The position numbers and the translations under genes were made by a program. Of a DNA stretch of 55,395 nt, positions 29,948 through 55,395 are shown piece after piece; position 1 is the stretch's first letter; the number at the start of each line of letters is the position of its first letter. The DNA is from Prorocentrum cordatum (taxonomy: Eukaryota). The notes under the pieces are model-generated. The model did not search any database, was not told the DNA's origin, and saw only the letters and a program-made list of their open reading frames with translations. The DNA lies in the NCBI GenBank assembly GCA_963575745.1, contig CAUYUJ010000164.1, positions 62,001-117,395 on the forward strand. Direction: 5' to 3'.

Positions 29948-30582
29948 TCCCCCTCCCCCTCTCCTCCTCCTCCTCCTCCTCCTCCTCCTCCTCCTCCTCC
30001 TCCTCCTCCTCCTCCTCCTCCTCCTCCTCCTCCTCCTCCTCCTCCTCCCTTTCCTCCTCCTCCCCCTCCTCCCTTTCCTCCTCCTCCTCCTTCTCCTCCT
30101 CCTCCTCCTCCTCCTCCTCCTCCTCCTCACCCTTGCGGGCGCGAGCCCTTTCGAGCCGCCCAAAGCGGTTAGGGAATCTCGCCGGGTGCTTCGACCCCGC
30201 CGGCGCTGCGCGGCAAAGCGCGGCGCGCCTGGCGCCCGGCCCTGCGCAACGGTTGTCGCTGCATCGAGGCGGGTGCGACCGGCGCTGAGGAAGAGCCTGC
30301 GCGAGAAGACAGAGGGGGAACGGGGGAGGGGCAGGAGGAGGGGGACGGGGGAAAGGGAAAGGAGGAGAAGGAGGAAAAGGAGGAGGAGGAGGAGGAGAAG
30401 GCGAAGGAAAAGGGGAAGGCGGAGAGGAGGAGGAGGAGGAGGAGGAGGAGGAGGAGGAGGAGGAGGAGCAGGAGGAGGAGGAGCAGAGGGAGGAGGAGGA
30501 TGAGGAGGTTCAGGAGGGAGGAGGAGGAGGAGGAGGAGGAGGAGGAGGAGGAGGAGGAGGGAGGAGGAGGAAGAGAAGGAAC
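29948..30582. repeat. (CCT)n tract (29948-30128) and (GAG)n tract (~30305-30582) around a short spacer
   Basis: Direct reading. Confidence 0.9.
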
Positions 30583-30584
30583 TC

Positions 30585-33500
30585 ACGCATGCAAGACCTC
30601 CGCCGTCCCCTCCGAGTTGCCATCCCCCCCTTCCCTCTTGGAGTTCACCTGAAAGCGCACTCGCATGCTCGCAGCGTCAGAGGAGAAACAGGAGGATGAG
30701 GAGGAACCGCACCACCCAAGGGAGAGAGCGGACACGACGCGAGCAAGGGAGAAGAGCAAGAGGGCAAGCGGACAAGAGAGTGAAGGGGAGAGAACCCGTC
30801 CACCGTCCTGACACACGATTCCGAATGGGATGCTTCACCTGACTAGAGAGGCTGGCCTCTCAGGAGGAGGCCAGCTTGCCATGATAATTTTCTCAAGGAT
30901 CCAGCCCGAGCTTCAACTAAGTGACTGCTGAATGGAAAGTCTCTGCCCCTTACCTACACGAAGGGAGTTCATAACACTACACATGATTTCAATAGCCATA
31001 GCTACACTGCGCAATCCAGACCTAGAAGACAATTCCAAGAACGCAGGAATACATTGCTTTTGGTAGTCGCCTTCGCCCAAGAAGCCAGGAAGAAAGGGGG
31101 GAGAGGCCCTCGCAGCTTCGAGTAGAACAGGACACCGCATGTAGTGATCAAGAGAATTCCCTCCCACTGCCATACATCTGCACAGGCAACCCAGAGCCCC
31201 AATCCGATATCTCCGAGAAGTGTTCAATGCATTGCACCATGTCTTCAATACTGCTGTCAGCACGAACGGCGGCAGCACCCCTGCGATGACCCGCAGGCGA
31301 AAAAAGGACAGTCCAATCTGAAGAATCTGGGCATCCGAAATGCCAATCTGCCACCTCTTCAGCCCCGGGGTTCCTCGACACTGGACGTCGGAGAAGCAGC
31401 CGCGATAGTTTTCCTGGCGAGGGCATGTGGAGGTTCAAACCATCAGGGTTCTCGGGGGCTTGTGGTAGCGCTTCGACACTCTGAGCAGTATCTATCATAT
31501 ATGTCAGAATAGACGTCTTGTATGACGGATGATACTCAGATGCGATAGTAGAGTCATCACCATGTAGGATATACTCCAACTCCTCCTTCCAATGCAGAAA
31601 TGCCGAACTCCTCTTAGCCGTCCAAAATGCCGCCGCCCTCCCCCACGTAACAATGTGGTTACATTCCAAAGCATTGCCCACTGCCTTGAGCTGGAACGCC
31701 AGTGCTGGCGGGATGGCGTTGAAGGGTCCTGCAGTCAAAAAATGGGCCGCCTCTCTCTCTGCGCGCCCATCGCCACCGGCAGCGCTGGTCGCACTTGGGA
31801 GACGGAGCTGAGGACAGGGAAGACGAAGGTGTTGTAAGCGAAAATGTTAAAGGAGCACGAGAGCGACATGGGGCGAATTTGCCGCGCCCGTCTCTTCAGG
31901 CTGGGACTAGGGCCGCGCCGACGCTCTTCCGTGGCCCCGCACCAAGTCCAATCACAACTCCAAGGCACCTGGCGTTGCAGAAGGTTTTCAGCTTCTGTAT
32001 CCGAAGGGCCCGTCTCTGAAACTCTGCCCCAATCCAATCATAAGCAAGGTTGTTCGGGAAGATCAGGCAGATTTTCTCGGGGGTGAACGAGCAGCCCAGT
32101 CATGTTGGCCAAATCCAACAGGCCCTAACGAGCCCAGGAAGAGCATCGAACAATTTGGTTGGCGCGTGGGCAAGGTCGTCGGCAAATCCGCACAGGGAAC
32201 AACTCAGGGATGCTGGCAGGCTGTGTCCCAGGAAGCGAATCATAGTGTCAACCACCAGAACAAGAAGCACCCCGCTCAGCGAGCCGCCCTGTTGAATCCC
32301 TCTGAAGATCTCAAACTAGACATTCGAGCTTCCCCGAGAGCAAACGTGCACCCTGACATTGCGTCACAGTTGGCGGACGGCGCGCAGCGCGACTTCTGGG
32401 GCCATCATCTTCTCACGAAATGGAACATGAAGCAATGCGCAAGCGAAGCAAATTCAGATTCGATGTCGAAGAGAGCGGCGCCCGCACGCACTAGGTTGCT
32501 CAGCCCTGTCCAAGGCGCCCTCTGCGAATCAATCGAGATGATGCGGTCCATCATGCTACGCCCCGCGAGAAACCATGCCATAATTCTGTCGACCACGATG
32601 CTAGCAGAGTGCGAAATAGGAGAAGCAATGGCACATGATCCGATCTTGATATCGGCGATCACGCCAGCGGCCGCGTCTTCCCTGGGTCCCTGTCTTCTCC
32701 GCTGTCATCGCCACGTGCGTCATCGCCTTTCGGCAAGAAGCATCCAGAGCAACATTGAAACCGTCGTCCACCGCCACGGCCCCCTATCGGTATACATATA
32801 TACAAAATAGAGCCATGCAAACTGTAGAAGGTGCCCCAAAACATGCGCCCCCTCGTTTTTCCCAGGCAGCACAGGGCACCCCCGTCCATTCCAGGCGCAG
32901 AATCGCGTTTCCTCCAGGTAGGCTTACAGAACAGGCCCCCTCGAGGGCGGCCCAGACGGCGGTCTTGGCGACCGTTTGGACGAAGGGGTCGACTTCGCGA
33001 AAGCATTCGGGCGCCGAGGGCCATGGGCGCCAAATGTCCCCCCCAGCGGGCAGCCAGAGCACGCGCGCACCCTTCAGGGCTGACGAGAGCCCCGCCGTCA
33101 TCTGCGATGATGCGTCGAAGGAAGACCCTCCGATGGCGTGGTGCCCATGCAGCGGCAAGTGAACAAGAGCGCCTGAGGTGGCCGTTCGTCCGCGCCTCCG
33201 TCATCTCCTCACCCTTCGCAACCTCCCTCTCCCCCGTGTCAAACTGGGCCCGCATCGGCCGGCAGAGAAACTCGTTGCGCGCGGGGAACGCGCTCCAGCC
33301 AGCCGAGCTGGACGTCGCAGCTGTCCGAGAGACGCGGAAATGCACGACGAGCCCCATTGACCGCAACCGCCTGGCCACGGCGGCGGGCTCGAACGAGAGC
33401 GCGGCACCAGGCCACCTGTTCGGGAGTACTCCTAGGGCTCCTTTTCTCCAGGATGTGTTTGGTCCGCGCGGCATCAACGCGCATGGGGTCTTCGATGCGT

Positions 33501-33833
33501 TTCGCGGCCCCCGCGGGACAAGACGGGAGATCGTGCCCCTCCGCCAGGGCCGCCAGGATCTCCCCATGTTCATCAGAGCGAGCAATCCACCTAGGATACA
33601 GACCAATAAACACTGGAGCATGATCACTAACGCTGCCAGGTTGGAGAACATCCCAACGCGTCCCAAAGACAGGGCCGAAGTCCGGGATGTCGCAGGTAGG
33701 AGTAGTTATGTAGATGCGGTCATTACGCCCGAGAGACATCGGTGCCCAATGGTCGTCAGCTTGATGCGATCGAAGAATATATCTAGATTTTTCCATCTCA
33801 GCCAGGCACGGGAATGCAGGATCGAAGTGCCCC

Positions 33834-33864
<31 letters not shown>

Positions 33865-35607
33865 ACACACGCACCCCGCCCCCAAAGATATCGCAGCCCA
33901 TCTCCTGGAACGAATCAGCGAGCCTCAATCGGCCCTCTCCAACCGCAGCAAAGTTAAAAAGTCACCAGCAAGAACGGACGCGGCCAGGTGCGGAGGAGGA
34001 AGATGAACAGAGATCGTGTTGAGAATGTCCTAAGCCTCGGCGCGGTGGGGGGGGGAAGGAGGGGCCAAGGTGGAAGTTGAGGACGCGGAGCGAGCCGCAG
34101 TCGCCCGATAGTGCGAGATGAGACAGCCGCCCTGGATCAGCAGCCCCCCCCGCCTGATCTCCCAGTTCGGAGAGGGCGAATGAGCTAAAGTAGCGAGCAA
34201 TCCGCCCGCAGAAGGTCTGGCAGTACAAGGACCCCACGTCTTCCATTCAGGATGCAACTTCCGAAATTTTTCAAATGCCCTAGAGCCCGTGAGTCTCTGG
34301 GATGAAAACAATATCGAAGCTGGCCGCTAACCTCCGAGAAGCGCCGTAAGTTCCTCGAACATTATCACTGGACGTCCATATAGATCCAAACGAAGTATGC
34401 GCATTCCAAGACACCAGCCTAAGCGGCCCATGGAAAGGAAGGAAGGGCGTGGATGGGGAAAATCTAAAAGGCCCTGGGGGAGGTAGGTGACATGTATAAC
34501 AGGCGCAACCAGAACAGGGCAGGACTCAGGATTGGGGGACTCACTCAGGCGCTGCCGGGGTTCGGCGCTCTCCACCATGTCACAGGGCGATGGGCTCAAT
34601 CAAGTCCGCGACGCTCTTCTCATTCGCATTGATAGCGGCGAAGCTCGAGAGGACAGGGGTGAATGTGGAGCTATCTCCTCGCCGCTCGTGATGTGCACCA
34701 TCTCGAACACCTCGTCGCTGGACGCGTAGCGCATCGGCCCCTGATAGCCGTGCGCTCCGAGCCTGAAGCCTGTCACGTCCTTGCCCCCATTACGGAGCAA
34801 AGTCATCCCGCCTTCGTGCAGCTTGTTTGCCGCCCTCTGGCGCTGGCGCACGTCGATCGGCATGTCCCTCCTCGGGTAGACTTCGCGCGCGCGGCCGTCC
34901 CTGGGATCCGCCCAGGAAAGATCATGATCTCGAAGGAGATTGCTGAACTCCTTGGCTGGCAACACAGTGGCAAACGTAAAGCCGTAGCTGTTGCCCACCC
35001 ACGCGATCGTGACCGTCACGGGGTCCCTGATGTGGTGCGGTAGCTTGGGCTCTACGATCTGCTCGCAGTGCTCACTCCGCTGCTTCCCGGTGAGGCTGCG
35101 CGGGAATGTCCCCATCCAGCGCCGCTTCTTCTTCTTCTGGTCCTGCACATATTCAGCTGGGTTCCCTCTAACTCTGCGATGCTTTGACGATGCGCCATCA
35201 CTCGCACTGCTCGCCCCCTGATGATGCACACGAAGCTGCTACCGCCGCGTAAGATGGCAGCTGCTCCTGCTTGGACTTGAGCTCGGCAATCTCGCTCTGC
35301 TGTGCTTTGACCACCTCGGAGAAATATTTGACATTGTCTGCTAGACCTGCCAGCTGAGCTACCTGCTCAGCCAGTCCTTTGTTCACCGCGGAGGCGAGGT
35401 CCGTCATCTTCTCATTGAGGCTGGATCGAAACGTCGCGAAGAGCTGCGCAATCTCGACCACTGCAGCAACTGAGGTTTGTTGGGGAGCCCTGCCCCGTCG
35501 TGCAAGAAAGAGAAGAATTCGTGTCCGCCTGGGCTCAACAGCCAGATTGCCCTCTGAAGAGAGCTGCCCGCCCAAATTGGACCTGTTCCCACTTGAGCCA
35601 AATTGGC
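30585..35607 (-). mobile_element. Decayed, near full-length non-LTR retrotransposon (ORF1 + APE-RT-Zn, L1/Tx1-like), many frameshifts
   Basis: ORF1 coiled-coil-like segment (35198-35520) continuing into 34600-35229; APE remnants SWNAH, DIVFIPETHG (~34290-34320), LAGDF, DRIY, SDHAPV; RT remnants SAPGMDG, FLPKG..KTRPL, GFADDLA (~32168-32188); C-terminal CLCRC...LDHYMRCP. Clade is inferred; the 3' boundary is approximate. Confidence 0.82.
35592..35607 (-). other. Partial DinoSL relic at the 5' end of the L1/Tx1-like element
   Basis: GCCAATTTGGCTCAAG versus GCCATTTTGGCTCAAG: 15/16. Confidence 0.75.
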
Positions 35608-36047
35608 AAAGGAAGGAGGAAGAGGAGGAGGAGGAGGAGTAGCAGCAGCAGCTTGGGCGCGTAGTGCGGCGGACTCCAGACAACGCGACGCAAGCTACCG
35701 CACTCAGGTCGTCATTAAGCGGCCCTTCGCGGCGTCGAAAGCCTTTTGATGGATGAAGCAAGTGGTGCCGCTCTCGGAGCGGTGGAGGACGACGGGGAGA
35801 AGGAGGGGGAGGAAAAGGAGAAGAAGGAACAGGAGCGCCTGTGGCTCACCAGGTTTGCCCTTCGCCGCGCAGACCGCGGGCGTGCGGACTTGGGGCTCTT
35901 ACTTTGACAGCCTGTCGAGGGTCGCCGTGAAGCAGTTGTAGTGGATATGTTACTTCTTGGGGGGTTCGTTGAAGGTGCAGACTCTCACCTCCAAGCATCA
36001 CTAGTAAAGGAATGCGATGTTCCGAATGGTCATCCTCATGGAGTGCT

Positions 36048-36335
36048 CAGGACGAGGGGGAGGACGAGGGGGAGGAGGAGGAGGAGGGAGCAGGAGGAAG
36101 AGGGAGGAGGGGGAGGGGGAGGGGGAGGGGAAGGACGAGGAGGAGGAGGAGGAGGAGGAGGAGGACGACGACGAGGAAGAGGAGGGGGAGGAGGAGGAGG
36201 AGCAGGAGGAGGAGGAGGAGGAGGAGGAGGAGGAGGAGCAGGAGCAGGAGGGAGCAGGAGGAAGAGGAGGAGCAGGAGGAGGAGCAGGAGGAGGAGGAGG
36301 AGCAGGAGGAGGAGGAGGAGGAGGAGGGGGAGCGG
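36048..36335. repeat. (GAG)n microsatellite
   Basis: Direct reading. Confidence 0.9.
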
Positions 36336-37110
36336 TGGAGCGCGCAAGCGCGCGCGCCCCCAAACGCGGCGCCCTCAGAGCCGGCAGCTGGCGCCCTGGA
36401 AGGGCCGGAACGGGCCGGGCATCTTGTGGCCCACCTGGGGGGAGCGATGGGGGGGGAGGGCTCGATTCGGCGAGGCACAGCTGCCGGAGAGCACCCCGAG
36501 GCTGGACAACCGCCGAGAACATCGAAAACGCCCTCCACCTGTCGTTTTGCCCCTGGCCACCGCCTCCGGCTCTCGGCGAGGCGCAGCTGCTGGAGAGCAT
36601 CTCGCGGCTGGAAAACTGGAAAACCGCCGAGAACAGCGAGAACGCCCTGAGGCCAAAATCGTTTCTCACGATTCGCGAGAACGGCCATTACCCAGGATGC
36701 TCCCCGCTTCCCCACCCCACCTGGTAACGTCACGCTTCGCGCTGGCGCCTTTTGGGACTTGCTGCAAGGGTGTACTAGCTCCCAAACGGCGCCGGCGCAA
36801 AGCGTGACGTCACCAGCCCTCTCGCCCACCCTCTACCCCCCCTGTAACGACCGTTATCGCGAAGGATTAAAAAACGGGCCCCTCGTTCGTCTTGATTTTT
36901 CATAACATCGACCTTCAGAGGTCTCGCCCCACTCCACGGGACCGGTTTCTCATCCTGAGTCCTTCTTTGGCGGTCCAGAGGCCCTGCAAGGGCCCCCAGA
37001 GGTCGAAAACAACCGAAAACCTACCGCCCAGATTGTTGCATTATTCGAGAGGGTCTGGGTTGCCTCACGCAGGGAGGAGGAGGAGGGAGGAGGGAGGAGG
37101 AGGAGGATGA

Positions 37111-37975
37111 GGACCAGTGTAAACCCAAGAGTCATCAACGACGTTGGAGTAAACCCTCCCTCCAAGCTCCATCTTCATAGGCCCGTACAACTGTTCATTT
37201 CCATTGTTGGAACTGCCTCGTTGGAAGACACCCGCTTGAAGACCCTGAAGCAATCCCAAGCATTGTTCTCGGGGTTCCAACGCCACGGATCAACCTGATT
37301 GTTGCGTCCTGACGATCCTGAATCGTGCGAGAAAGCCGTTCCTAGGACATCAGCACAGAGAATCAACGTAACTGTTGCACCCGCATAATCCAGAATCCTT
37401 CCCAAACACAGATTTTGGTACGTTGATGATGGGAATGTGTGAAACTCTTGAAAACTTAGTAAACGAATGTGCGCGGCGCTAGGGCGATAACCACATTTTG
37501 AAAAGGAATCGCCCTCAATCCGTGAAGCTCTTGCAAATATTTAAAACGAATGTGCGCTGCGCTAAGGCGAAAGACACATGTTGAAAACGACCTGCCCTCA
37601 ATCCGCGAAGCTCTTGCAAATGTTTAAAACGAATGTGCTCCGCGCTAAGGCGATAGCCACAATTTGAAAACCACCCGCCCTCAATCCGTTACGCTCTTGC
37701 AGACTTGTACAATGAATGTGCGCGGCGCTGAGGCGAGAGCCACATCCAAAAAACGGCCCGCCCTCAATCCGCGAAGCTCTTGCAATTTTGTTAAACGAAT
37801 GTGCGCCGCGCTAAAGCGAGAGCCACAGTTTGAAAACCACCCGCCGTCCGTCTGTGAAACTCTTGCCAATGTTTGAGCTTCAGGGTCATAAGTGGTAAAA
37901 CAATATGAGGCGAAAGCCCTAGAAACTGGACGCGGTCGGGGTGCGACGCGGAGAAAATACTTATAAGGAACAGGA
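37111..37975 (-). mobile_element. Non-autonomous repeat module, copy 2 (~320 bp body plus five 83-bp monomers)
   Basis: Monomer anchor (C/T)GAATGTG at 37464, 37547, 37630, 37713, 37796; GAG tracts on both sides. Strand is inferred. Confidence 0.7.
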
Positions 37976-38289
37976 ATGGTGGATGAGGAGGAGGAAAAGG
38001 AGGAGGAGGAGGAAGAAGAGGAGGAGGAGAGGACGCAGGGAGGAGGAGAAGGGGGATAAGGAGAGGATGCAGGGAGAAGGAGAAGAAGGAGGAGGAGGAG
38101 GAGGGGAAGGAGGAGAGGAATTTTTTGACATCAACATCAAGGGAGAGAGCCTGCCCAGACAATTAGGGCAGGACGGCTGGTCAAGCCAGCAAATACTAAC
38201 ACCTGAAAAGCGAGGAAAAGCAGCGGGCCACAGGGACATCTCCAGCTGGCTGGAGGATACCCCGTGGCCCGCTGCTTCTCCCCCAGGCG

Positions 38290-44348: not shown

Positions 44349-44443
44349 GGGAGACGCCGCGAACGATGCTACTGTCTGAACGAGCCACTTGACCCGCTAG
44401 CGCAGTGTGCCGTTCTGAAGTATACGCTAGCAAGCCCAAATCA

Positions 44444-46914: not shown

Positions 46915-48590
46915 ACAGCTCCGACTGGGGGGTCTCTTAGAGCCAAAGCGGAACAGCCCTAACGACCCCCCATGACCTGGGCAACGCCCCTGGTCCAGCC
47001 GCCTCGGCGGCGGCCTCCGCAACAGAAGATCGGCCCCTCGTGGAGCCAACACTCGGAGCAGACAGCTCCGACTGGGGGGGTCTCTCAGGGCCAAAGGGGG
47101 ACAGCCCTAACGACCCCCCCATGACCTGTGGGGCGGCGCCCCTGGTCCAGCCGCCTCGGCGGCGCCTCTCACGAGAGAAGATTGGCTGGAAGCACGCTCG
47201 GGACGGACAGCTCCGACTGGGGGGTCTCTTAGGGCCAAAGGGGAACAGCCCTAACGACCCCCCCATGACCTGTGGGGCAGCGCCCCTGGTCCAGCCGCCT
47301 CGGCGGCGCCTCTCACGAGAGAAGATTGGCCCCTCGTGGAGCCAACACTCGGAGCAGACAGCCCCGACCGGGGGGTCTCTTAGGGCCAAAGGGGAACAGC
47401 CCTAACGACCCCCCCATGACCTGTGGGGCAGCGCCCCTGGTCCAGCCGCCTCGGCGGCGCCTCTCACGAGCAGAAGATTGGCCCCTCATGGAGCCAACCT
47501 TAGGGCCGGACAGCCCCGACCGGGGGGTCACTTAGGGCCACAGGGGACAGCCCTAACAACCCCCCCATGACCTGTGGGGCGGCGCCCCTGGTCCGGGCGC
47601 CTCGGCGGCGCCTCTCACGAGCAGAAGATTGGCTGGAAGCACGCTCGGGACGGACAGCTCCGACTGGGGGGTCTCTTAGGGCCAAAGGGGAACCGCCCTA
47701 ACGACCCCCCCCTGACATGTGAGGCCGCGCCCCTGGTCCAGGCGCCTCGGCGGCGGCCTCCGCAACAGAAGGTTGGCCCCTCGCGGAGCCACACTCGGAG
47801 CGGACAGTCTGGACTGGGGGGTCTCTTAGGGCCAAAGGGGAGCAGTCCTAACGACCCCCCGGTGACCTGTGATGTGCTCCCTTGAATTCCGAGGCGCTGT
47901 AACCCTGGAGTTCCCCCCGAGGCACTAGCCCTTCTGCCGAGTTTGGGGCCATGGCTCTCCTCACAAAAACTTGTCTTGCCGTGCCCATGGTAGCCCCCTA
48001 GAAAGTTTCCTTCGGAAGGGAAACGCACGTTCATGGCCGAACTCGGAGGTTCTACTTTGCTGCGCCCGCCCAACGGCCCTCAGAGAAGCCTCGGCCCGAC
48101 TGGGGGGTCTCTTAGGACCAAAGGGGGGCGACAGCCCTAACGACCCCCCCATAACCTGCGGGGCAGCGCCCCTGGTCCAGGCGCCTGGCAACGCAGCTCC
48201 GCAGCAGAAGATGGGGTCCTCGTGGAGCCACACTGGTAGCGGATAGCTCCGACTGGGGGATCTCTTAAGGCCAAAGGGGAACAGCCCTAACGCCCCCCAT
48301 GACCTGTGGGGCAGCACCCCTGGTCCAGGCGCTTCGGCGGCGCACCTCTGCAGCAGTCAGTGGGGCAATCGGAGAGCCACACTCGGAGCGGGTATCCCCG
48401 ACCAGGGGGCTCTTAGTGCCAAAGGGGAACAACCCTGACGACCCCCCCGGGAATGTTAGGCAGCGCTCCCTGTCGAATGCGTGGGCACGCATGGAGCCGC
48501 ACTCGGGGTGGATAGTCCAAATTGGGGGGTCTCTTAAGACCAAACGGGAACAGCCTTAACGACCCCCCTGGCCTGTGGGGCAGCGCTCCT
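46915..48590 (+). repeat. ~145-152 bp satellite with an internal TTAGGGC/GCCCTAA hairpin; diverged copies at 45360-45760
   Basis: CCGAC(T/C)GGGGG-type anchor near 46921, 47068, 47213, 47364, 47516, 47660, 47811. Confidence 0.92.
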
Positions 48591-48754
48591 GGCCTGGGCG
48601 GAGGGGTCCGACCCCTCCTGCCCCTTCCCAATTTCGGCAATCCTGGAGATCGGCGAATTGGGAAATGTGTTGGAACCGTTAGTAGTGGGTGGTAGGGTGG
48701 CCAGTGCCCCCCTACCACCTTAAGCCCTCACACCGCGTCAAGGTGGTTCCTTGG

Positions 48755-49070
48755 GAGGGAGGAGGAGGAGGAGGAGGAGGAGGAGGAGGAGGAGGAGGAG
48801 GAGGAAGAGGAGGAAGGAGGGAAAAGGGAGGAGGCGATCAATGAGGGAGAGGGGGGGGGGAAGGGGAGGGGGAAGGGTGGATACGAACGAGGAGGACGAG
48901 GAGGAAGACGAGGAGGAAGAGGAGGATGAGGAGGAGGAAGAGGAGGCGGGGGAGGAGAAGAAGGGGAGGAGAAGCAGGAGGAGGAGGAGGAGGAAGAGGG
49001 GGAGGAGAAAGATCCCGAGGGATGATGATGATGATGATGAGGAGGAGGAGGAGTAGGAGGAGGAGGAGGA
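48755..49070. repeat. (GAG)n microsatellite
   Basis: Direct reading. Confidence 0.9.
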
Positions 49071-49836
49071 CCAGTGGAAACCCAAGAGTCATCAACGATG
49101 TTGGGATTACCCCCCCTCGAAGCTCCCTCTTCACAGGCTCCTACAACGGTTCACTTCCATTTGGGGAACTGCCTCGCTGGAAGACGACAGTTTGAAGATC
49201 CTGAAGCGTGCCAAAACATGGGTCTCGGGATTATCAACCTGACTGCTGCGTCTTGACGATCCAGAACCGTGCCAGCACGCCATTTTGGGGACGTCAACAC
49301 AGCGAATCATCATAGCTGTTGCGCCCGCATAATCCTGAATCCTTCCCAAACACAACCTCTGGTACGTTGATCATACGAACCCGTGAAACTCTTGCAAGTG
49401 TTAAAAAAAAACTGCGCGCGGCACTAAGGCGAGAGCCGCATTTTGAAAAGGATCAGTCCTCGATCCGTGAAGTTTTTGCAAATGTTTAAAACGAATGTGC
49501 GCGGCGCTAAGGCGAGAGCCACATGTTGAAAAAGGAACCGCACTCACTCCGTGAAGCCCTTGCAAATGTTTAAAACTAATGTGCCCGGAACTAAAGCGAG
49601 AACCACAATTTGAAAACCACCCACCCTCAATCCGTGAAGCTCTTGCAAATGTTTACAACAAATGTGCGCGGCTCTGAGGCGAGAGCAACAGTTTGAAAAC
49701 CACCCGACCTCAATCCTTGAAGCTCTTGCAATGTGTTAAAACGAGAGTGCGCGGCACTACGGGCAGAACCACATTTTGAAAGCGATCCGCCCTCCATCTG
49801 TGAATCCGCTGTCACTGTTTCAGAGTCGTGAGTAGT
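49068..49836 (-). mobile_element. Non-autonomous repeat module, copy 3
   Basis: Body aligns with copy 2 (ACCCAAGAGTCATCAACGA...GCATAATCC.GAATCCTTCCCAAACAC); monomers at 49492, 49576, 49659, 49742. Strand is inferred. Confidence 0.7.
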
Positions 49837-50111
49837 GAGGAAGGAGGAGGAGGAAGAGGAGGAGGAGGAGGCGCGCGCGGACCGCACGCCACCAGCAAGA
49901 GGCAAGCCTCGAGCTGGTGGTCCGGTACAATCAGCACTCAGCACACGCCAGGGCGTGGGCCGAGCGGGCGGGCCGCCCCGCCTGCCTGGCCACGTCGCAC
50001 GCCATCCTCCCCAGCGCCGAGAGCACCAGGAAGAGGTACACGTATGCGGCGGGGGAAGGGGAGACGACGGGCGACAGACTACAAGGTCGGCCCAAGAAAA
50101 ACAAAACGAGT

Positions 50112-52139
50112 TTAATCAGACCCTGAGCTCGCTCCATCGGGAACGGGTTCGGGAACACTGGCCGCTTCCAGCGGCCTCGAACTATCAGCACTGCGGAGCT
50201 CCGCGCGGTCATCGCCGCGCTCGGTGGCCCCAGCTATCTTCACGCCCGTTCTAGGGTGACACCCGCGCTCCAGCCGTCTAATCGACATTCTCTGGTTGGC
50301 GGCAGTGCTCGGGACCTTGGACCTCCCTTTACATTGCTGCGTGAGGTTCCGCAGCGAGCCAAGAGATCCGCGAGCCCCGCACAACTTACAACAGTACACA
50401 TGCAGATGACGGAAAACGTCGTGCCCAAGGTCCCGAAACACAGAAAACTCGTCCGACGGCTCAGGCGTAGCCACAGGAGTCGGGGGACCTTGGACTTCAT
50501 CATTGCACACACGCTGAGCTTCGTCAGCGGCAGCCAGAGCAACCCTCACTGCTTCAAGCTGCACGGGCCTAAAAGCCGCCCCAAACTCGCGAAACCACTG
50601 GTCGCACACGTGTCGCTGGATCGAAGACGGAGAACAATCACGATAGTCCCTGCTCGTGAGCAGGCTCTTAAGCGACTCTAGAGTGCGAGCCACGCGGCCA
50701 CAGCTCCTGCACTTGTAAGTGCTGGTGGCCTCGCAGCGAAATAACACATGGCTGGTGACCGTGACCTTAGGAGGGGCAGGGGCTCTCAAGAGGCGGAGGG
50801 GACGATCAGGGTCAACATGTGTCCATGTGCCTGACTCGAGCAAACGCTGAGCAGCCCACGCAATGAACCGCACCGTGGACTTGTGATATTTTAATTCGCC
50901 TGAAACCGCCGCACAGAAACCTTCAGCTAGCGTGTGAGAGCTAGCCCCTAGTTTTGCGAAAAAATCAGCCCACAGGTTCCCAGCCCAACTTTTGATACAC
51001 AGCCCACGCTCCAAAACGTCGTCAAAACTCAGATGGGCAGGGAACCACGAGAACTGGGGGTGACTAGACTTCAAGTCAAAAATGGACCTCCAGATCGATG
51101 CATGCTTGGACATGCCTTGGGAAAGATGCAGGCTCCAAGAGTTGCCTTCACGCACTACTGCCTGGAGGTCCGACACAATACTCTGATGCTGTGGGTGATA
51201 AGCCAGACCCTGCCGCACTGCCCACCGTTCAGCGCGACCTATGGTCTGACGCTCCCCTGGAAGCGCTCCATATACTGCCCTCAAAGGAAGCAGGCAATCA
51301 AATAACTGCACCACGCTCCAACCAGCTCTGGAGACCTCTGGGACCCCAGAGTGAAAGCAACTACCGTCAGTGAAAGACTGTGGGCCCCAGGGCCCAGAGA
51401 CGTCCCCAAACTCAAAAATGGGCGGGTTGGCAAGCGGAGCGGGAATATTAGTGGGCAGAGGTGGGATGCCATAAGTTAAATAATTAGAGTGTACATCGGG
51501 CTCCCCAGTGATAGAGGCCCGAGACTCAATCAGAACGCGCCTATGCTTAGCTAGGGCCTCAGGAACCTCGTCACCCAAAGCGTCAATCCCGTCGTCAGTG
51601 ATGAACTTAGAACAGGCATACCACACATGTCCGTACGTACCTTGAGGAGCGGAGCAGGCAAGGCACACGGGTGGTACGTCATATTGTAGAGCAGAAAGTG
51701 CAGCAGGTAGCGGAACCACATTCCCCCAGACGGCCGCCAGGGCCCCAAGAGCCCGCTGGTCTTTTACAGCACGTATGCCATTACGTAGCGCACGAAACCA
51801 AGGCTCCCCTTCTGGAGGGTCAGTGTTATAGAGATGCTGCTGCAACCGACGTATCTGCCACCGCTGCACACCTTCAATAATCGCAATACGCACATCACTA
51901 GGACACACCACCAGCAGCGAAATATCTGTACCAAGATCGCTGCGAAAGGTGTGGGCATTGACCATCGTCCAGCCGATGCGAAGCAGGCTGAGCCACACCG
52001 CCGACAGCGGACCTCGAGCCTGCTGCCAAGTAGGGTTGTCGGACATGATGTCTCTCAGACGGGTCCAAGCACGTTGAAGTCTCGATAACTGAATCCTTCC
52101 GTCCCAGACGAACGTGGCGAACTTAACACACACACACAC
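50112..52139 (-). CDS. Zn finger, RNase H and C-terminal Cys/His part of ORF2, frameshifted from the RT at (AC)7
   Basis: CLAC..GTYGHVWYAC; FTDGS, RAERWA, VSDLQ, PAH, GNLWAD; CKLCG...C.G...GCHP. Confidence 0.88.
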   Translation of the reverse strand: MCVCVKFATFVWDGRIQLSRLQRAWTRLRDIMSDNPTWQQARGPLSAVWLSLLRIGWTMVNAHTFRSDLGTDISLLVVCPSDVRIAIIEGVQRWQIRRLQQHLYNTDPPEGEPWFRALRNGIRAVKDQRALGALAAVWGNVVPLPAALSALQYDVPPVCLACSAPQGTYGHVWYACSKFITDDGIDALGDEVPEALAKHRRVLIESRASITGEPDVHSNYLTYGIPPLPTNIPAPLANPPIFEFGDVSGPWGPQSFTDGSCFHSGVPEVSRAGWSVVQLFDCLLPLRAVYGALPGERQTIGRAERWAVRQGLAYHPQHQSIVSDLQAVVREGNSWSLHLSQGMSKHASIWRSIFDLKSSHPQFSWFPAHLSFDDVLERGLCIKSWAGNLWADFFAKLGASSHTLAEGFCAAVSGELKYHKSTVRFIAWAAQRLLESGTWTHVDPDRPLRLLRAPAPPKVTVTSHVLFRCEATSTYKCRSCGRVARTLESLKSLLTSRDYRDCSPSSIQRHVCDQWFREFGAAFRPVQLEAVRVALAAADEAQRVCNDEVQGPPTPVATPEPSDEFSVFRDLGHDVFRHLHVYCCKLCGARGSLGSLRNLTQQCKGRSKVPSTAANQRMSIRRLERGCHPRTGVKIAGATERGDDRAELRSADSSRPLEAASVPEPVPDGASSGSD

Positions 52140-54047
52140 CAGTAGTGGAGTCGTAGATCGGGTCGTATTGCGGATCGGCCTGCGTCAGCAGATACGAAGT
52201 AATGCCACCGTGCTGCTTGGCCCCTGCGATCGTAGCCGCAAGCTGCCTCAAATACTTCAGCGCAGTGTCTGAGATGCCCGACACGGAGCCCCCGTGTCCA
52301 GCTGCTGGGAGAGCTCCAGTCCTCCACAGTCGGGTTGCACGCTTGCCACTTGCATGTTTCAGCGCAACGAACTTGTCTCGACGACGTTTGAGAGCCTGTA
52401 ACCTTTTCTTCTCCTGCGTGCGAACAACCCGACCAGCAGCTAATTCATGCCCGAGATTTCTCATCCATTTACAAACAGGTAGATGCAGCCGAATAGCCAT
52501 CCTCGAAAACACCTTCCGAGCCACTTTGTTCCCAGCAGTGAGCCCCGACTTCTTGACATGGGAGTGGAGCCCCAGGACCTTGGCATCTTCAGTGAACACT
52601 TTCACCGCACGCTCCAGGAAACGGACGTCCCGAGGATCCGAAGTGACGAGCTGAATCGAGATGTCGTCGACTAGGGCTCTCGGTGTAATACAGGGCGAAA
52701 TGTCATTGAGCCTACGCACAGCGCGCAGCGTGAGGAGGAAAAGCATGCCTGTCGCATGATTGCACCCAGCAAGGATGCCTTGATGCGAGCAGAACTGCAC
52801 AGACAGACTGCCGAAAGCTCGAAGACGTCGTGGCTGCCTGTACAGATCCACCAACATCCAAGCTAGCCGCATTGGAAAGTGCAAAGCTTCAGCTTCTTTC
52901 AGCAGCTGCTCCGAGTGTACCATCTCGAAGCATTTGATCATATCTAAGAGGACAGAAATGGAAATATCACCGACTAGCGCCGCCATCTCGGCAGCAATGT
53001 TATGAGCAAAAGCACTGTCTGAGGAGCTGTGGCCCCGACGAGTCCCCCAAACAGCGTGGCAGTCATTACGCTCTTGCCAGTCGAAGGTGATGGGCTTGCG
53101 AACTTTGCCCCAGACACGGCACAGCAAAGAGACGGGCGCGATCAGTCGAGTCCCACCATCTGGTTTGGCAAGACGACACATCTCATTACAGACGCGCTCT
53201 CTAGGCCAGGCCAGGTGCAGCTCGCAAAGGTTAAAGAGTTCTGCAATCGCCGAGAAAGCCTGTCTAGGCAGGTGTATTAAAGCTCTCGGATGAATCCCCA
53301 TCATGCCTCCAGCAGTGCGAGTGGGGTAAGTGTGAACAGCATCCTCCACCTGAGCGGCCGTGATGCGCGGCAGACTGGGCCAGCTGGTGGACCCACGCGG
53401 AACCTCGAGAACGGAACGACCGTGGGACAACCAAACCTCCTTCCAGGGAACGAGTTCCGCATCGGCCTGCTGGTGGGGAGCCTCACGCGCCTGGTTGCTT
53501 AAAACCTCTTGGATGGCCTTCACCTTTGAGAACCTGTGAGCCTTCGAGGCGCCAGCAGAGAAAGCGTCCCTAGCCCATTGCCTCCAAGCCTGGGACGCCG
53601 CGTTCTCCGCACGAGCGATTGCAGACTTCGCCCGAATGTAGATAGTAGTAAGCATTCTGGCAACATCGGGACGTGCAAGGACGGCGAAGCCGCCATTGAA
53701 GAAATCACGCACATCAGAGTCAAGGCAACCAAGAACTTTTTTACAGCGGGCGATGTTGGCCATGAAACGATTGAACTCCTCAAAAGCCGAAATAAGCTTG
53801 CGACATTGGCGAGGCGCAGCAGCGCACGGAGCATCGTTAACTTGCAACAGCCTAATTTGCTCACTGAGATGTTCTCTGGCCTTGCCAAGGTGTTTGGCCC
53901 ACCCAAGAGCGACGGCCCAGGCTCGTGCCTGTGGATCCTTATAAGTCCTCCTTCTGGGGGGAGTCCAGACAAGCTTTTTGAAATGGACCTCAAGAGGCCC
54001 ACTGCGGCCACGTAGGCCTCGGCGGCAACGCCAACACGGCCCCACCT
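52123..54047 (-). CDS. Reverse transcriptase part of truncated ORF2
   Basis: KPDGGTRLIA, LLDMIKCFE, GILAGCNHAT, LVDD, RNLG. Confidence 0.88.
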
Positions 54048-54242
54048 GGAGAGGAGGAGGAGGAGGAGGGGGAGGAGGAGGAGGAGGAGGAGGAGGAGAG
54101 AAAGGAGGAGAGAATGGAGGGAAGAGGGAGGAGGGAGGAGGGAGCAGGAAGGCGGGAGGAGGAAAAGGCGGAGGAGGAGAAGGAGGAGGAGAAGGAGGAG
54201 GAGGAGGAGGAGGAGGAGGAGGAGGGGGAGAACAGAGAGTTG

Positions 54243-55395
54243 TTTTTTTGCCCCGCAGGGTAAAACTCAAACCTGTTTATCTATGGAGGAAGCTGGCGGC
54301 CTCCTCTTCAGCCTCAAGGTCAAGCTCTGGAGCAAACGGCTCCTGGGCCTGTCCCTGCATCCCCTGGAGGGGCTCCTGAGCAGATCGCCGCTGCTCTGGA
54401 GCCCTCAAAACATGATCCTGAAAACCAGCCGCCTCCTCTCGTGCTGCTATCCGCTGCCTCAACCTCTCCAGTCCTGGGATTAAACTGCTGCCTGGAAGAT
54501 CAACGGAAGGGCACTGAAACCACACAGCACGCTGGGGGCGCTGTTGGGTATCCAGAAGCCTCTGGCGCTCCGCATCACTTAAGATATGGAGCACAACACC
54601 TGGGGCAGCTCGATTGGACTGGGGATGCAGACCACGGAGCATACGATTGAGGCGGCACTTACTCGCAGAGGATACTACATATCCACGACACTGCTTTTCC
54701 AACTGGTGGCTGAGGCGCTCTGTGCTGTAGGCGCCACACCGCCTGCCAAATGCCAGATTGGGACCTGACGACAGCCGTGTATAGACCGGGTCGTGTCCGA
54801 GCGTCGGGCGAGCGAGAAAAGATAAATTCTGTCTCCTTCCAGGGCGCCCCGACATATCAAGTGAAGCCGCATTCGTACCTGCACGACGTGCATGACAATC
54901 ATGACAGATGAAAGAGCCAGGTGCGCCAGGCACTGCCGTCCAAGCATGCCAACGGTGCGCACCCGTACTTCTTGGCCGAGGAACCTTCTTACGCTCAGGG
55001 AGCTGGGGTGACGGGAAAAGGGGCAGCACAGAGCCCATCACCCGAGCCACAGCACGGACCTTGCCAATCGTGGCGTTCAATTCATCCCAGGAGGCTTGAG
55101 GTTCCTGGGCGTGCATCGCAAGAGCTTCCTTCGCAAATCGATCCGCTAGAAAGTTAGCTATCGCGATCCTCCGCTCATCTTGCGGTAGGTTATAAATTAC
55201 CTCCATACTGCGGTGGGCAGGGGTGTGGGTGCAGGGGCCGGCGTCTATCTCCCAAAAACCCCTACGAAGCCCCACGTACTTATTTCTGGAGGAGACTTGC
55301 TGGACAGCTGGCATGGTATGGTACCCCACAGGACCCAAACAATCGGACCACACATTTATCTGGTGAGCCAGCTGTCCAGTGTAAAAAACTTATCG
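54243..55395 (-). mobile_element. 3' end of a third RNase H-type non-LTR element (ORF 54277..55353), running off the window
   Basis: WSDC, TPAH, IANFLADRFAK (RNase H C-half); CHDC; RRCGAY...CRG...RGLHP; A7 tail at 54243-54249 followed by (CCT)n. Confidence 0.82.

What the first reader, a model, noticed from the sequence alone, without database searches (positions are those of the whole stretch)
30300..55395. Strand-specific cluster of LINEs inserted into (CCT)n/(GAG)n microsatellites
Seen: four elements (30585-35607, 38121-44460, 49871-54047, 54243-end) are all on the minus strand. Every end visible in the window abuts a tract reading (CCT)n on the element's sense strand, including a 5'-truncation point (54047) and short A tails (38121, 54243). 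Known: some APE-type non-LTR elements target microsatellites (Waldo and Mino at (AC)n; Kibi and Koshi at TC/TTC repeats). Inference: sequence-specific targeting of (CCT)n by an RNase H-bearing family and separately by an L1/Tx1-like family. TSDs cannot be resolved inside the repeats.
Basis: partly seen in the sequence, partly recalled or inferred. Interest (0 to 1): 0.75.

Follow-up and report, generated by a model that had tools for sequence, protein, structure and literature searches.

The report
Dinoflagellate LINEs inserted into (CCT)n microsatellites
In a dinoflagellate genome, several unrelated jumping genes (LINEs and a small dependent element) have all landed, in the same orientation, inside runs of the three-letter repeat CCT, and they carry the dinoflagellate mRNA leader at their front ends, which points to how these algae copy RNAs back into their DNA.

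Summary
Between 30.3 and 55.4 kb, nine (AGG)n tracts lie on the + strand and none in the opposite sense. Every unit between them reads on the minus strand. Four are LINEs: elt2 is intact, elt3 is 5'-truncated, elt4 is a 3' part, and elt1 is a decayed second family.

Three things are new. First, the host is a dinoflagellate: the 5' ends carry relics of its spliced leader, DinoSL. Second, target-site duplications can be read. Elt2 has an exact 16-nt duplication found nowhere else in the window, so (CCT)n was a pre-existing target and not merely a tail. Third, a non-autonomous retroposon, X, has three copies with one shared 3' end and variable 5' ends. All three sit in CCT-type tracts on the minus strand, one of them 25 kb away.

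Elt2, elt3 and elt4 belong to one RNase H-bearing superfamily, not two kinds. Nothing shows that the endonuclease makes the choice. One outside elt2 copy has a non-(CCT)n 3' flank. Plus-strand retrocopies sit in (CAT)n, and leader-tagged retrocopies of other dinoflagellates abut other microsatellites (4 of 10). No genome-wide tally was possible.

Verdict: a real new variant of microsatellite-directed retrotransposition.

The parts
54243..55395 (-). elt4: 3' part of a LINE (RNase H-homologous region and C-terminus). It runs off the window. Stop codon at 54277-54279, A7 at 54243-54249.
   Evidence: Matches ORF2 profile positions 1391-1636 (E 4.8e-14). P0003 residues 1450-1692 align. Sequence read.
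54044..54235 (-). (CCT)n tract between elt4 and elt3
49877..54043 (-). elt3: 5'-truncated LINE with RT and RNase H but no APE or ORF1. It has no poly(A). The two ORFs overlap at 52123-52184, which indicates a frameshift. A 17-nt direct repeat, a candidate target-site duplication, flanks it.
   Evidence: RVT_1 30 bits and RNase_H E 2.3e-4. Profile positions 546-1555 only. Candidate duplication; it is weak, with 7 occurrences in the window.
49834..49876 (-). (CCT)n tract between elt3 and Xb
49076..49833 (-). Xb: non-autonomous retroposon with about 5 internal copies of an 83-bp repeat. It is about 85 nt shorter at the 5' end than Xa.
   Evidence: 80% identity to Xa. Alignment shows the same 3' end ...GGGTTTMCACTGGT followed by (CCT)n.
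48747..49075 (-). (CCT)n tract
45163..48746 (.). U5: unidentified unit holding a 148-151-bp satellite (46901-48472). CCT tracts flank it on both sides.
   Evidence: No Pfam hit for its ORFs.
44461..45162 (-). (CCT)n tract of about 700 bp upstream of elt2. Its last 16 nt (44476-44461) are the upstream copy of the target-site duplication.
38121..44460 (-). elt2: intact LINE. Its 5' end reads AG plus a decayed truncated leader relic (44460-44444). ORF1 runs from the ATG at 44348 to the stop at 43181. The ORF2 frame is 43212-38293, with APE at aa 40-184, RT around aa 600-770, zf-RVT at aa 1082-1125 and RNase H around aa 1193-1337. The A6 tail is at 38126-38121.
   Evidence: Ends are confirmed by contigs of other runs. 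Exact 16-nt target-site duplication.
37980..38120 (-). (CCT)n tract downstream of elt2. Its first 16 nt (38120-38105) are the downstream copy of the target-site duplication.
37118..37979 (-). Xa: full-length copy of retroposon X. A 9-nt repeat TCCTCATCC lies at both junctions.
37066..37117 (-). (CCT)n tract
36338..37065 (.). U7: unidentified unit between CCT tracts
36057..36337 (-). (CCT)n tract
35645..36056 (.). U8: unidentified unit between CCT tracts
35613..35644 (-). (CCT)n tract upstream of elt1
30582..35612 (-). elt1: decayed LINE of a second family. It starts with a DinoSL relic (35612-35592; 18 of 21 letters) and has no poly(A).
   Evidence: Relic. Collinear tblastn hits to the RT protein P0012 at 33628-33362, 33246-32662, 32653-32408 and 31275-31117 (summed E 3e-18).
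30359..30581 (-). (CCT)n tract downstream of elt1, the last tract of the array
11578..12255 (-). Xc: third copy of retroposon X, 25 kb from the cluster. A 25-nt CCT-type tract follows its 3' end and a mixed CCT/GTC tract precedes its 5' end. A 16-nt direct repeat lies in both flanks, starting at 12293 and at 11566 and read downward on the minus strand.
13905..15414 (+). R: retrogene on the + strand. It starts with a DinoSL relic (20 of 21 letters) and has no poly(A). (CAT)n lies on both sides (13130-13904 and 15415-16146).
16150..16990 (+). elt5: 5'-truncated RT fragment on the + strand. It starts right behind the (ATC)n/(AGC)n tract.
   Evidence: RVT_1 E 0.0053, below the cut-off. Motifs FLDLTKAFD, SRQGC and YVDD read. 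Weak tblastn hit to P0012.

Best explanation
The window comes from a dinoflagellate. One long, imperfect polypyrimidine microsatellite, (CCT)n on the minus strand, has been hit again and again by target-primed reverse transcription, always with the element's sense strand on the CCT strand.

The inserts are LINEs of at least two unrelated families (elt2/3/4 and elt1), a non-autonomous retroposon (X), and some unidentified units. The transposition intermediates are mRNAs capped by trans-splicing with the dinoflagellate spliced leader. Full-length copies therefore begin with a leader relic.

Shown:
- These are insertions into a pre-existing tract, with a staggered break of about 16 bp.
- The 3' ends are constant and the 5' ends vary.
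- The orientation is fixed.
- The RNA carried the leader.

Inferred: the first nick falls in the purine (AGG)n strand. The choice of tract comes from an endonuclease preference, from pairing between that nicked strand and a (CCU)n stretch at the RNA's 3' end, or from both. Such a stretch would arise by read-through from a source copy that already sits in (CCT)n. Most copies lack poly(A), which fits this.

This use of (CCT)n looks like the local form of a wider habit of dinoflagellate retroposition to land in microsatellites.
For: 1. Dinoflagellate host and leader-capped RNA.
- Contigs of runs X1 and X3 continue past 44460 with the complete 22-nt DinoSL, joined to CCGTTCTGG....
- The DinoSL sequence was read in passages of PMC7245778 and PMC6050394.
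- The window holds relics at 35612-35592 (elt1), 44460-44444 (elt2) and 13905-13925 (R).
- Metagenome contig L004 encodes a relative of elt2 (70% aa identity over ORF2 residues 13-65). It starts with (CCT)n, then AG, then two tandem leader relics.

2. The tract is a target and not only a tail.
- An exact 16-nt repeat, TTCCTCTCCTCCTTCC, ends right before elt2's first base and starts right after its A6 tail.
- It occurs only at these two places in the window.
- Identical impure 16-mers from two different tracts occur in 0.024% of random pairs, and any identical 16-mers in 0.44%.
- Xc has a 16-nt flanking repeat and elt3 a 17-nt one. Both are weaker, with 7 occurrences each.

3. Retroposon anatomy. 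The three X copies share one 3' end directly followed by CCT. Xb is about 85 nt shorter at its 5' end than Xa, and it still abuts CCT. Elt3 lacks APE and ORF1.

4. Orientation and adjacency.
- 9 of 9 tracts in the region lie in one sense.
- 7 of 7 recognisable elements show CCT on the sense strand at 13 of 13 visible ends.
- 4 of 6 independently defined boundaries lie within 5 nt of a strict tract (p 2.7e-5).

5. Missing poly(A). Elt1, elt3, the three X copies and R have none.

6. Independent assemblies. Contigs from other runs reach 5 nt (X3) and 11 nt (X2) into the same flanks. They may come from the sample that gave the window.
Against: - One elt2 copy in run X1 has poly(A)9 followed by non-(CCT)n sequence at its 3' end. 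Not every copy lies in (CCT)n.
- In X1 and X3, only 3 letters (TCC) are known upstream of the full leader, which proves nothing about that flank.
- All but one of the in-tract cases come from a single 55-kb window. Most come from one array, where successive hits are not independent if elements prefer one another's surroundings.
- Dinoflagellate genomes are very rich in simple repeats: 25% in Polarella and 13% in Alexandrium (passages).
- Elt2 itself ends in poly(A). The primer end inferred from its duplication (...GGAA) would not pair with A or with CCU, so the pairing model does not explain elt2.
- Plus-strand retrocopies sit in (CAT)n. This argues against a (CCT)n-specific protein as the general cause.
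- No RNA data were examined.
Confidence: 0.6

Rival explanations
1. Passive accumulation. The genome is laden with kilobase-scale trinucleotide repeats and is organised in one-directional blocks. Insertions land at random, and they survive or get assembled mainly in repeat-rich, gene-poor stretches. Adjacency to (CCT)n and the shared strand would then be by-products.
For: - Simple repeats make up 13-25% of other dinoflagellate genomes (passages of PMC7245778 and PMC3229502).
- About half of dinoflagellate genes lie in one-directional groups (passage of PMC11453091).
- The first 30 kb of the window also hold 7 AGG/CCT tracts.
- The X1 copy of elt2 has a non-(CCT)n flank.
Against: - Strict AGG tracts plus margins cover only 3.7% of this window, yet 13 of 13 visible element ends touch CCT-type tracts.
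- The surrounding DNA is itself non-coding repeat, so selection has no evident reason to spare only the tracts.
- Dead-on-arrival copies (elt3, Xb) show the same orientation, so selection for expression cannot explain it.
- Xc, 25 kb away in a (GAC)n-rich stretch, still has CCT-type flanks.
Confidence: 0.12
2. Tail, not target. Each element carries its own (CCT)n 3' tail, as other LINEs carry (TAA)n or similar tails. The array arose because new copies insert next to older ones, so the upstream tract of each element is only its neighbour's tail.
For: - Elt1, elt3 and the three X copies end without poly(A), directly in CCT.
- In Xc, about 11 nt of CCT-like sequence lie between the X body and the candidate duplication, like a short templated tail.
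Against: - Elt2 has a poly(A) tail, and its 16-nt duplication shows that CCT sequence lay on both sides before it inserted.
- Upstream of elt2 there is 700 bp of tract, more than any tail downstream of a neighbour would explain.
- L004's 5' end lies behind at least 37 nt of CCT.
- Even on this reading, new copies must choose CCT tracts. The tail model is therefore a mechanism for targeting and not an alternative to it.
Confidence: 0.15
3. Recombination cassettes. Units flanked by the same microsatellite are moved or duplicated by homologous or slipped recombination between tracts, for example through excised circles, and not by reverse transcription into the tract.
For: - The same motif in the same sense flanks every unit, including units of unknown nature (U5, U7, U8).
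- The tracts are long enough for recombination.
Against: - The exact 16-nt duplication with a poly(A) tail at elt2 is the signature of target-primed reverse transcription.
- Leader relics sit exactly at 5' ends.
- The X family has constant 3' ends and variable 5' ends.
- Xa and Xb have different neighbours on both sides.
Confidence: 0.05

Closest known systems
Microsatellite-targeting APE-type LINEs: Waldo (ACAY)n, Mino (AC)n, Kibi (TC)n, Koshi (TTC)n, Dong (TAA)n. Listed in the review PMC3812793 (passages read).
   Same: Autonomous APE/RT elements found inside one kind of microsatellite in a fixed orientation. The mechanism is also unresolved there; the review says endonuclease specificity is only 'believed' to be the cause.
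   Different: - The target motif (CCT)n is not among the five listed. 'CCT' occurs 0 times in that review.
- The host is a dinoflagellate, not an insect, fish or snail.
- The elements carry RNase H and spliced-leader relics.
- At least two unrelated LINE families and a non-autonomous element share the target.
- Other retrocopies in the same window use (CAT)n.
- Clade membership (R1, Tx1, R4) was not tested.
DinoSL-tagged retrogenes, i.e. mRNA recycling in dinoflagellates. Slamovits and Keeling 2008 is recalled, and is cited in PMC6050394, PMC7245778 and PMC12014239 (passages read).
   Same: Genomic copies begin with a complete or truncated leader relic. Tandem relics mark repeated rounds (L004). 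The truncated relic form CCATTTTGGCTCAAG described in PMC12014239 matches elt2's decayed CCGTTCTGGCCCAGG.
   Different: - Here the tagged RNAs are the retrotransposons themselves, with intact ORF1 and ORF2. The retrocopies also have readable junctions: a 16-bp duplication, microsatellite flanks, and mostly no poly(A).
- The passages I read leave the mediator of retroposition open. PMC6050394 favours LTR elements. PMC12014239 says retrotransposons, with retroviruses not ruled out.
Target-specific LINEs whose read-through 3' sequence pairs with the target (R1, TRAS, SART types).
   Same: This is a model in which RNA 3' sequence identical to the target guides where reverse transcription starts. 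It would explain the missing poly(A) and the same motif on both sides.
   Different: Pairing is not shown here. Elt2 has a poly(A) tail. No RNA 3' ends were seen.
Head-to-tail arrays of retroelements in repeat tracts, such as telomeric TRAS/SART in (TTAGG)n and Zepp clusters in Chlorella. Recalled.
   Same: One-directional arrays built by repeated insertion into the same repeat or into one another.
   Different: The tract here is an internal trinucleotide microsatellite. Several unrelated families take part.

Membership tests
APE-type non-LTR retrotransposon (LINE) | Apurinic-like endonuclease domain at the N-terminus of ORF2 | tested here: met
   - elt2: Exo_endo_phos at 28 bits (cut-off 24.5), aa 40-184.
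- elt1: only the C-terminal SDHAPV stretch, aligned to SDHVPV of P0012.
- elt3 and elt4: absent through truncation.
APE-type non-LTR retrotransposon (LINE) | Reverse transcriptase domain | tested here: met
   - elt3: RVT_1 at 30 bits (cut-off 29.6).
- elt2: RVT_1 at only 11.4 bits (E 0.25). It aligns over 86-91% of its length to P0001 and P0003; P0001 has RVT_1 at 31.4 bits.
- elt1: aligns to P0012, which has RVT_1 at 78 bits.
APE-type non-LTR retrotransposon (LINE) | Target-primed insertion marks: target-site duplication, 3' tail, 5' truncation | tested here: met
   - elt2: exact 16-nt duplication and an A6 tail, A9 in a copy from run X1.
- elt3 and Xb are 5'-truncated.
Microsatellite-specific LINEs (Waldo/Mino/Kibi/Koshi/Dong kind) | Most genomic copies lie in one kind of microsatellite | tested here: inconclusive
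   - Window: 7 of 7 elements.
- Outside the window: L004 yes at the 5' end; the X1 3' end no; the X1/X3 5' end unreadable, with only 3 nt known.
- No genome is held.
Microsatellite-specific LINEs (Waldo/Mino/Kibi/Koshi/Dong kind) | Fixed orientation relative to the repeat | tested here: met
   7 of 7 elements in the window, and L004, have CCT on the sense strand. If orientation were random the chance would be about 0.004, but members of one array may not be independent.
Microsatellite-specific LINEs (Waldo/Mino/Kibi/Koshi/Dong kind) | Endonuclease cleaves the repeat specifically | not testable with these tools
   This needs a nicking assay. The nick sites inferred from three duplications all lie in the purine strand but give no consensus.
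   - No reference RTs were available for a tree.
- elt2 has an RNase H-like region: Pfam E 0.0057, covering profile positions 5-139 of 141.
- Its relatives P0001 and P0003 have RNase_H hits.
- elt4 aligns to the RNase H part of P0003.
- No PDB match.
DinoSL-tagged retrocopy | Relic of DCCGTAGCCATTTTGGCTCAAG at the 5' end of the genomic copy | tested here: met
   - R: 20 of 21 letters. elt1: 18 of 21. elt2: 13 of 17 of the core. Shuffled windows give about 1 hit at these thresholds.
- The full leader stands on X1 and X3 contigs.
- L004 has two tandem relics.

The most novel reading that the evidence does not exclude
Retroposition in dinoflagellates is guided by microsatellites. This covers LINEs, their dependents and the many recycled mRNAs. 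RNAs that read through into the repeat downstream of their source copy pair with a nicked copy of the same repeat elsewhere, and this primes reverse transcription. That would explain four things: the same motif and sense on both flanks, the missing poly(A) tails, the sharing of one motif by unrelated families, and the different motifs seen in other species.

For the (CCT)n users, the polypyrimidine tract may also serve as the signal for spliced-leader trans-splicing. Promoter-less elements inserted in the sense orientation would then be cut out of host read-through transcripts, capped with the leader and transposed again. On this reading LINEs, and not LTR elements or retroviruses, are the engine of dinoflagellate mRNA recycling.
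Probability: 0.3. Interest if true: 0.8.

Novelty: new variant of a known kind. Interest (0 to 1): 0.65.

Why it matters
Dinoflagellates recycle a large share of their mRNAs into the genome. Over 20% of genes in two Symbiodinium genomes are retrogenes (passage of PMC6050394). The reviews I read still leave open which machinery does this and where the copies land.

This window shows an intact LINE whose own RNA carries the spliced leader. It also shows a dependent retroposon and a retrogene, all with readable insertion junctions inside microsatellites. That makes the question testable with long-read genomes and Iso-Seq data that already exist.

The window also adds a new motif, (CCT)n, and a new host phylum to the short list of microsatellite-directed LINEs. 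Because unrelated families share one target, it suggests that the target may be chosen by the RNA tail or by the state of the DNA, and not by each family's endonuclease.

Finally, it offers one reason why dinoflagellate genomes pair huge simple-repeat loads with massive retroposition.

Tried and rejected
1. More copies with flanks.
- A protein search with the C-terminal 550 aa of elt2 ORF2 in metagenome contigs found no relative.
- Alignment A1 in viral contigs and in prokaryote genome contigs found none.
- A1 in metagenome contigs gave 5 loci, of which only L004 reaches an element end.

2. Naming the organism or the family.
- Cluster look-up gave no names.
- The protein atlas gave no taxa.
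- The PDB sequence search gave no hit.
- Earlier findings held nothing for this genome or sequence.

3. Loose ends inside elt2 (for example at 40080, 40227, 40928 and 42282) are not (AGG)n. At 85% likeness they may simply mark where related subfamilies stop aligning, and 79 further loose ends were not shown. I draw nothing from them.

4. Stuttering of the reverse transcriptase on the leader's first letters (TCC) as the source of (CCT)n: rejected. Truncated copies and 3' flanks have the tract too, and other retrocopies abut other motifs.

5. My first reading was that the AG at 44460-44459 belongs to the flank, and that the window copy is the parent of the X1/X3 copy. I dropped it as shown fact after the 16-nt duplication placed AG inside the insert. 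The window copy and the X1/X3 copy are better read as siblings from one leader-capped RNA, with the window copy 20 nt short at its 5' end. The polypyrimidine-acceptor idea survives only as a hypothesis.

6. A leader relic at elt3's 5' end: not supported at 4 or fewer mismatches.

7. elt1 against Pfam (13 ORF pieces, none matching an RT or endonuclease family), against the elt2-type profile and against the other elements by tblastx: no hits. It was identified only through P0012.

8. Shared 3'-end motifs between X and elt2: only about 8 nt (GTTGATG) are shared, which is not significant.

9. Literature searches listed no paper on (CCT)n-targeting LINEs, on LINEs tagged with DinoSL, or on retrogenes abutting microsatellites. 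Subscription journals are not covered.

Full report
WHAT IS THERE

The window is G+C-rich (about 59%) and dense in repeats. No whole genome is held for it.

From 30.3 kb to the window end, nine (AGG)n-type tracts lie on the + strand: 30359-30581, 35607-35644, 36057-36337, 37066-37117, 37980-38122, 44464-45162, 48747-49075, 49834-49876 and 54044-54235. None lies in the opposite sense there. The last (CTC)n on the + strand ends at 30137. In the first 30 kb the senses are mixed: 3 loci with AGG on + and 4 intervals with CCT on +.

THE FOUR ELEMENTS

- Elt2 (38121-44460) is intact. ORF1 runs from the ATG at 44348 to the stop at 43181. It has a Cys-rich start, a Gly-rich stretch and a coiled-coil-like part. 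The ORF2 frame is 1640 aa. It has APE at 28 bits against a cut-off of 24.5, zf-RVT, a weak RVT_1 hit and an RNase H-like region (E 0.0057, covering nearly the whole Pfam profile).
- Elt2's nearest database relatives are P0001-P0003, at 27-35% identity and unnamed. P0001 and P0003 carry RNase H.
- I built a profile from elt2 and six relatives (1701 positions). It matches elt3 at positions 546-1555 only.
- The same profile matches elt4 at positions 1391-1636.
- Elt2, elt3 and elt4 are thus distant members (about 25-30% aa identity) of one APE-RT-RNase H superfamily. They are not an 'RNase H family' plus an 'L1/Tx1-like family'.
- Elt1 (30582-35612) gave nothing with Pfam, that profile or tblastx. 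A HMMER search of one of its ORFs over 1.8 billion proteins then found P0012 (E 1.3e-4), which has RVT_1 at 78 bits. P0012 aligns collinearly to four minus-strand stretches of elt1: the end of the endonuclease (SDHVPV against SDHAPV), the linker, RT motif A and a C-terminal Cys motif (summed E 3e-18).
- Elt1 is therefore a decayed LINE of a second, unrelated family.

A FIFTH FAMILY: RETROPOSON X

The self-comparison showed that 37074-37858 and 49033-49804 are 80% identical. A third, more diverged copy lies at about 11578-12255.

Read on the minus strand, the three copies share one 3' end (...GGGTTTNCAC(T/G)GG), directly followed by CCT-type sequence. Their 5' ends differ: Xb is about 85 nt shorter than Xa. 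Each 5' end is directly preceded by CCT-type sequence.

A constant 3' end with variable 5' ends is the mark of a non-autonomous retroposon. The two cluster copies, Xa and Xb, have different neighbours. Xc lies 25 kb away in a stretch dominated by (GAC)n, yet it has a 25-nt CCT tract behind it and a mixed CCT/GTC tract in front.

THE HOST IS A DINOFLAGELLATE, AND THE RNAs ARE LEADER-CAPPED

I laid Logan contigs of four runs on elt2.

- Contigs of X2 and X3 reproduce the window's two junctions for 11 and 5 nt. They may come from the same sample as the window.
- Contigs of X1 and X3 diverge after 44460. On the element's strand they read TCC-TCCGTAGCCATTTTGGCTCAAG-CCGTTCTGG....

The 22 letters are the dinoflagellate spliced leader, DinoSL (DCCGTAGCCATTTTGGCTCAAG), as given in passages of PMC7245778 and PMC6050394.

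A scan of the window for the leader found three relics, against about one hit in shuffles:
- the 5' end of elt1 (35612-35592; 18 of 21 letters);
- the 5' end of elt2 (13 of 17 of the core, in the truncated form that the literature describes for relics);
- 13905-13925 on the + strand (20 of 21 letters).

An alignment-based scan of metagenome contigs returned five loci. One of them, L004, encodes ORF1 and the start of ORF2 of a close relative of elt2 (70% aa identity over residues 13-65). It begins with (CCT)n running to the contig edge, then AG, then a complete leader, then a second decayed complete leader. This is an independent insertion of a related element. It too lies right behind (CCT)n, and it has been through at least two rounds of trans-splicing and reinsertion.

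TARGET OR TAIL? THE DUPLICATIONS CAN BE READ

The tracts are imperfect, so flanks can be compared.

- For elt2, the 16 nt TTCCTCTCCTCCTTCC end exactly before the first base of the insert (AG-CCGTTCTGG...) and start exactly after the A6 tail.
- This 16-mer occurs nowhere else in the window.
- Random pairs of 16-mers from different tracts are identical in 0.44% of draws, and identical and impure in 0.024%.

Elt2 therefore entered a pre-existing CCT tract by target-primed reverse transcription with a 16-bp stagger. The 700-bp tract upstream and the 143-bp tract downstream were once one tract.

Other candidate duplications:
- Xc is flanked by a 16-nt repeat (TCCTCCTCCTGCTCCT). It occurs 7 times in the window, but only these two copies lie in the first 30 kb.
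- Elt3 is flanked by a 17-nt repeat. This is weak, being nearly pure CCT.
- Xa has 9 nt containing an odd CAT.
- In Xc, about 11 nt of CCT-like sequence lie between the X body and the repeat, as a short templated tail would.

With the duplication as ruler, the elt2 insert begins with AG. That is the last two letters of a leader, followed by a truncated older relic. The window copy and the X1/X3 copy are best read as siblings from one leader-capped RNA, with the window copy 20 nt short. L004 also starts with AG right behind the tract. I cannot explain that coincidence.

IS IT MORE THAN CHANCE?

- Six boundaries can be placed without looking at the repeats: elt2's 3' end (divergence in X1), elt2's 5' end (leader join), elt1's 5' end (relic), and the three X 3' ends. 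Four lie within 5 nt of a strictly defined AGG tract, where 3.7% of positions do (p 2.7e-5).
- The other two lie beside a degenerate stretch that TRF counts as tract (44464 onward) and beside Xc's short tract.
- All 13 visible ends of the 7 recognisable elements touch CCT-type sequence on the sense strand.
- If orientation were free, 8 of 8 (with L004) would have a chance of about 0.004. Members of one array may not be independent.

WHAT SPEAKS AGAINST A SIMPLE '(CCT)n-SPECIFIC ENDONUCLEASE'

1. An elt2 copy in X1 has A9 followed by sequence that is not (CCT)n.
2. Two unrelated LINE families and a non-autonomous element share the target.
3. Most copies (elt1, elt3, the three X copies) have no poly(A).
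4. On the + strand, a leader-tagged retrogene R (13905-15414; ORF to 14842; no poly(A)) lies between two (CAT)n tracts of 776 and 732 bp in the same sense. Right behind the second tract starts a 5'-truncated RT fragment, elt5 (16150-16990; motifs FLDLTKAFD, SRQGC, YVDD; RVT_1 E 0.0053).
5. A scan of prokaryote genome contigs for the 21-letter leader gave 20 loci, evidently dinoflagellate contamination of MAGs.
   - 8 loci are leader RNA genes, where GT follows the leader: L130, L131 and L132 (the same contig), L134, L137, L141, L143 and L144.
   - 2 loci (L135, L139) lie too close to a contig end to read.
   - The other 10 are relic-type sites with at least 30 nt of upstream sequence. In 4 of them a microsatellite lies directly upstream: (GT)n, (TCA)n, (GA)n or (GACA)n.
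   - In the other 6 (L126, L127, L129, L133, L136, L142) none does.

Landing in microsatellites thus looks like a wider habit of dinoflagellate retroposition, with the motif differing from case to case.

MECHANISM I THINK MOST LIKELY

Shown: repeated, orientation-specific, target-primed insertion of leader-capped retroelement RNAs into a pre-existing (CCT)n tract, with a stagger of about 16 bp.

Inferred:
- The first nick is in the purine strand. From the duplications, it falls at ...GGAA/GGAG for elt2 and in or at the edge of AGG runs for Xc and elt3.
- The tract is chosen by endonuclease preference, by pairing of a read-through (CCU)n RNA end with the nicked (AGG)n strand, or by both.
- The pairing idea explains the shared target of unrelated families, the missing poly(A) and the (CAT)n cases. 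It does not fit elt2's own poly(A) junction.

Speculative: the polypyrimidine tract in front of each sense-oriented copy helps spliced-leader trans-splicing, so that promoter-less copies are expressed from read-through transcription.

RIVALS

The rivals are passive accumulation in a repeat-laden, one-directional genome, element-borne tails only, and recombination between tracts. They are weighed in the Rival explanations section of this report. The elt2 duplication, the X anatomy and the distant Xc copy speak against each of them as the whole story.

COMPARISON WITH WHAT IS KNOWN

Microsatellite-directed APE LINEs are known for five motifs: Waldo, Mino, Kibi, Koshi and Dong (PMC3812793, passages). 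(CCT)n is not among them, and none is from an alveolate.

DinoSL relics on retrogenes are well known. The passages I read leave the mediating element open, and one review favours LTR elements.

My searches listed no paper on leader-tagged LINEs, on (CCT)n targeting, or on retrogenes abutting microsatellites. The library lacks most subscription journals, and I read passages only, not whole papers.

VERDICT

It is wrong on the family split and on the duplications, and unproven on the role of the endonuclease.

It is a new variant of a known kind. Its added interest is that it ties the dinoflagellate habit of recycling mRNAs to LINEs and to microsatellites.

The main weakness is that nearly all the evidence comes from one 55-kb window, and no genome-wide tally or RNA data could be obtained.

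Noticed in passing
viral-contig loci from L006 onward, e.g. L010, L018, L031, L059, L064: The 17-letter core of the dinoflagellate spliced leader occurs in 119 stretches of IMG/VR. Most are AT-rich contigs (GC 15-30%) of giant-virus MAGs. Each occurrence is preceded by AAAATTGA-like sequence, about 35 AT-rich nt and TACC, and is followed by AG. That is, a mimivirus-type early promoter with a genome-encoded host leader in front of many genes. An earlier finding of this scan (e1-5545970) already describes such cassettes.
   Followed up: partly
L125, L128, L138, L140 (prokaryote MAG contigs): Exact leader relics in contigs filed under bacterial MAGs, evidently dinoflagellate contamination. (GT)n, (TCA)n, (GA)n or (GACA)n runs directly up to the relic. 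This holds for 4 of the 10 relic-type sites that have readable upstream sequence.
   Followed up: partly
L133:2001-2021: A bare 21-letter leader flanked on both sides by the same 19 nt (TTTTGCTTGCAGGCGTGAG). It looks like a retro-insertion of the leader alone, with a target duplication.
   Followed up: no
window 13905-15414 (+), with 13130-13904 and 15415-16146: Retrogene R has a leader relic with 20 of 21 letters, an ORF to 14842 with no Pfam family, and no poly(A). It is embedded in about 1.5 kb of (CAT)n.
   Followed up: partly
window 16150-16990 (+): A 5'-truncated reverse-transcriptase fragment (elt5) begins right behind the (ATC)n/(AGC)n tract. It ends at a (CTTCGCGCGCG)3 repeat.
   Followed up: partly
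window 44461 and L004:38-39: Two independent copies of the elt2 family begin with AG directly behind the CCT tract. In elt2 the duplication places AG inside the insert. Why the 5' ends stop at the same two letters of the leader is unexplained.
   Followed up: no
window 29946-30137 and 30359-30581: (CTC)n and (GAG)n on the same strand face each other across 220 bp of G+C-rich DNA at the downstream edge of the array. This inverted pair of tracts could mark a strand-switch point.
   Followed up: no
window 2000-3800: 141-bp tandem units made of CCCTAA(A) followed by (CGGGT/CGGGC)n. They are telomere-like and G-run-rich.
   Followed up: no
window 3721-6945 (-): A 1074-aa open frame with a weak retroviral-type aspartyl protease hit (E 5.5e-4, below the cut-off). 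It may be a decayed LTR-type element. Its flanks were not examined.
   Followed up: no
window 37441-37870, 49381-49804, 11780-12150; 46901-48472: Retroposon X carries about 5 internal copies of an 83-bp repeat. The unidentified unit U5 carries about 10 copies of a 148-151-bp repeat. Satellites inside mobile units may seed the short tandem arrays reported for dinoflagellate genomes.
   Followed up: no
window 17350-18550, 20340-21300, 23236-27460: Long arrays of 10-11-bp (CCCCAAGAGG-like) and 64-bp repeats fill much of the first 30 kb. No ordinary host gene was recognised anywhere in the window.
   Followed up: no
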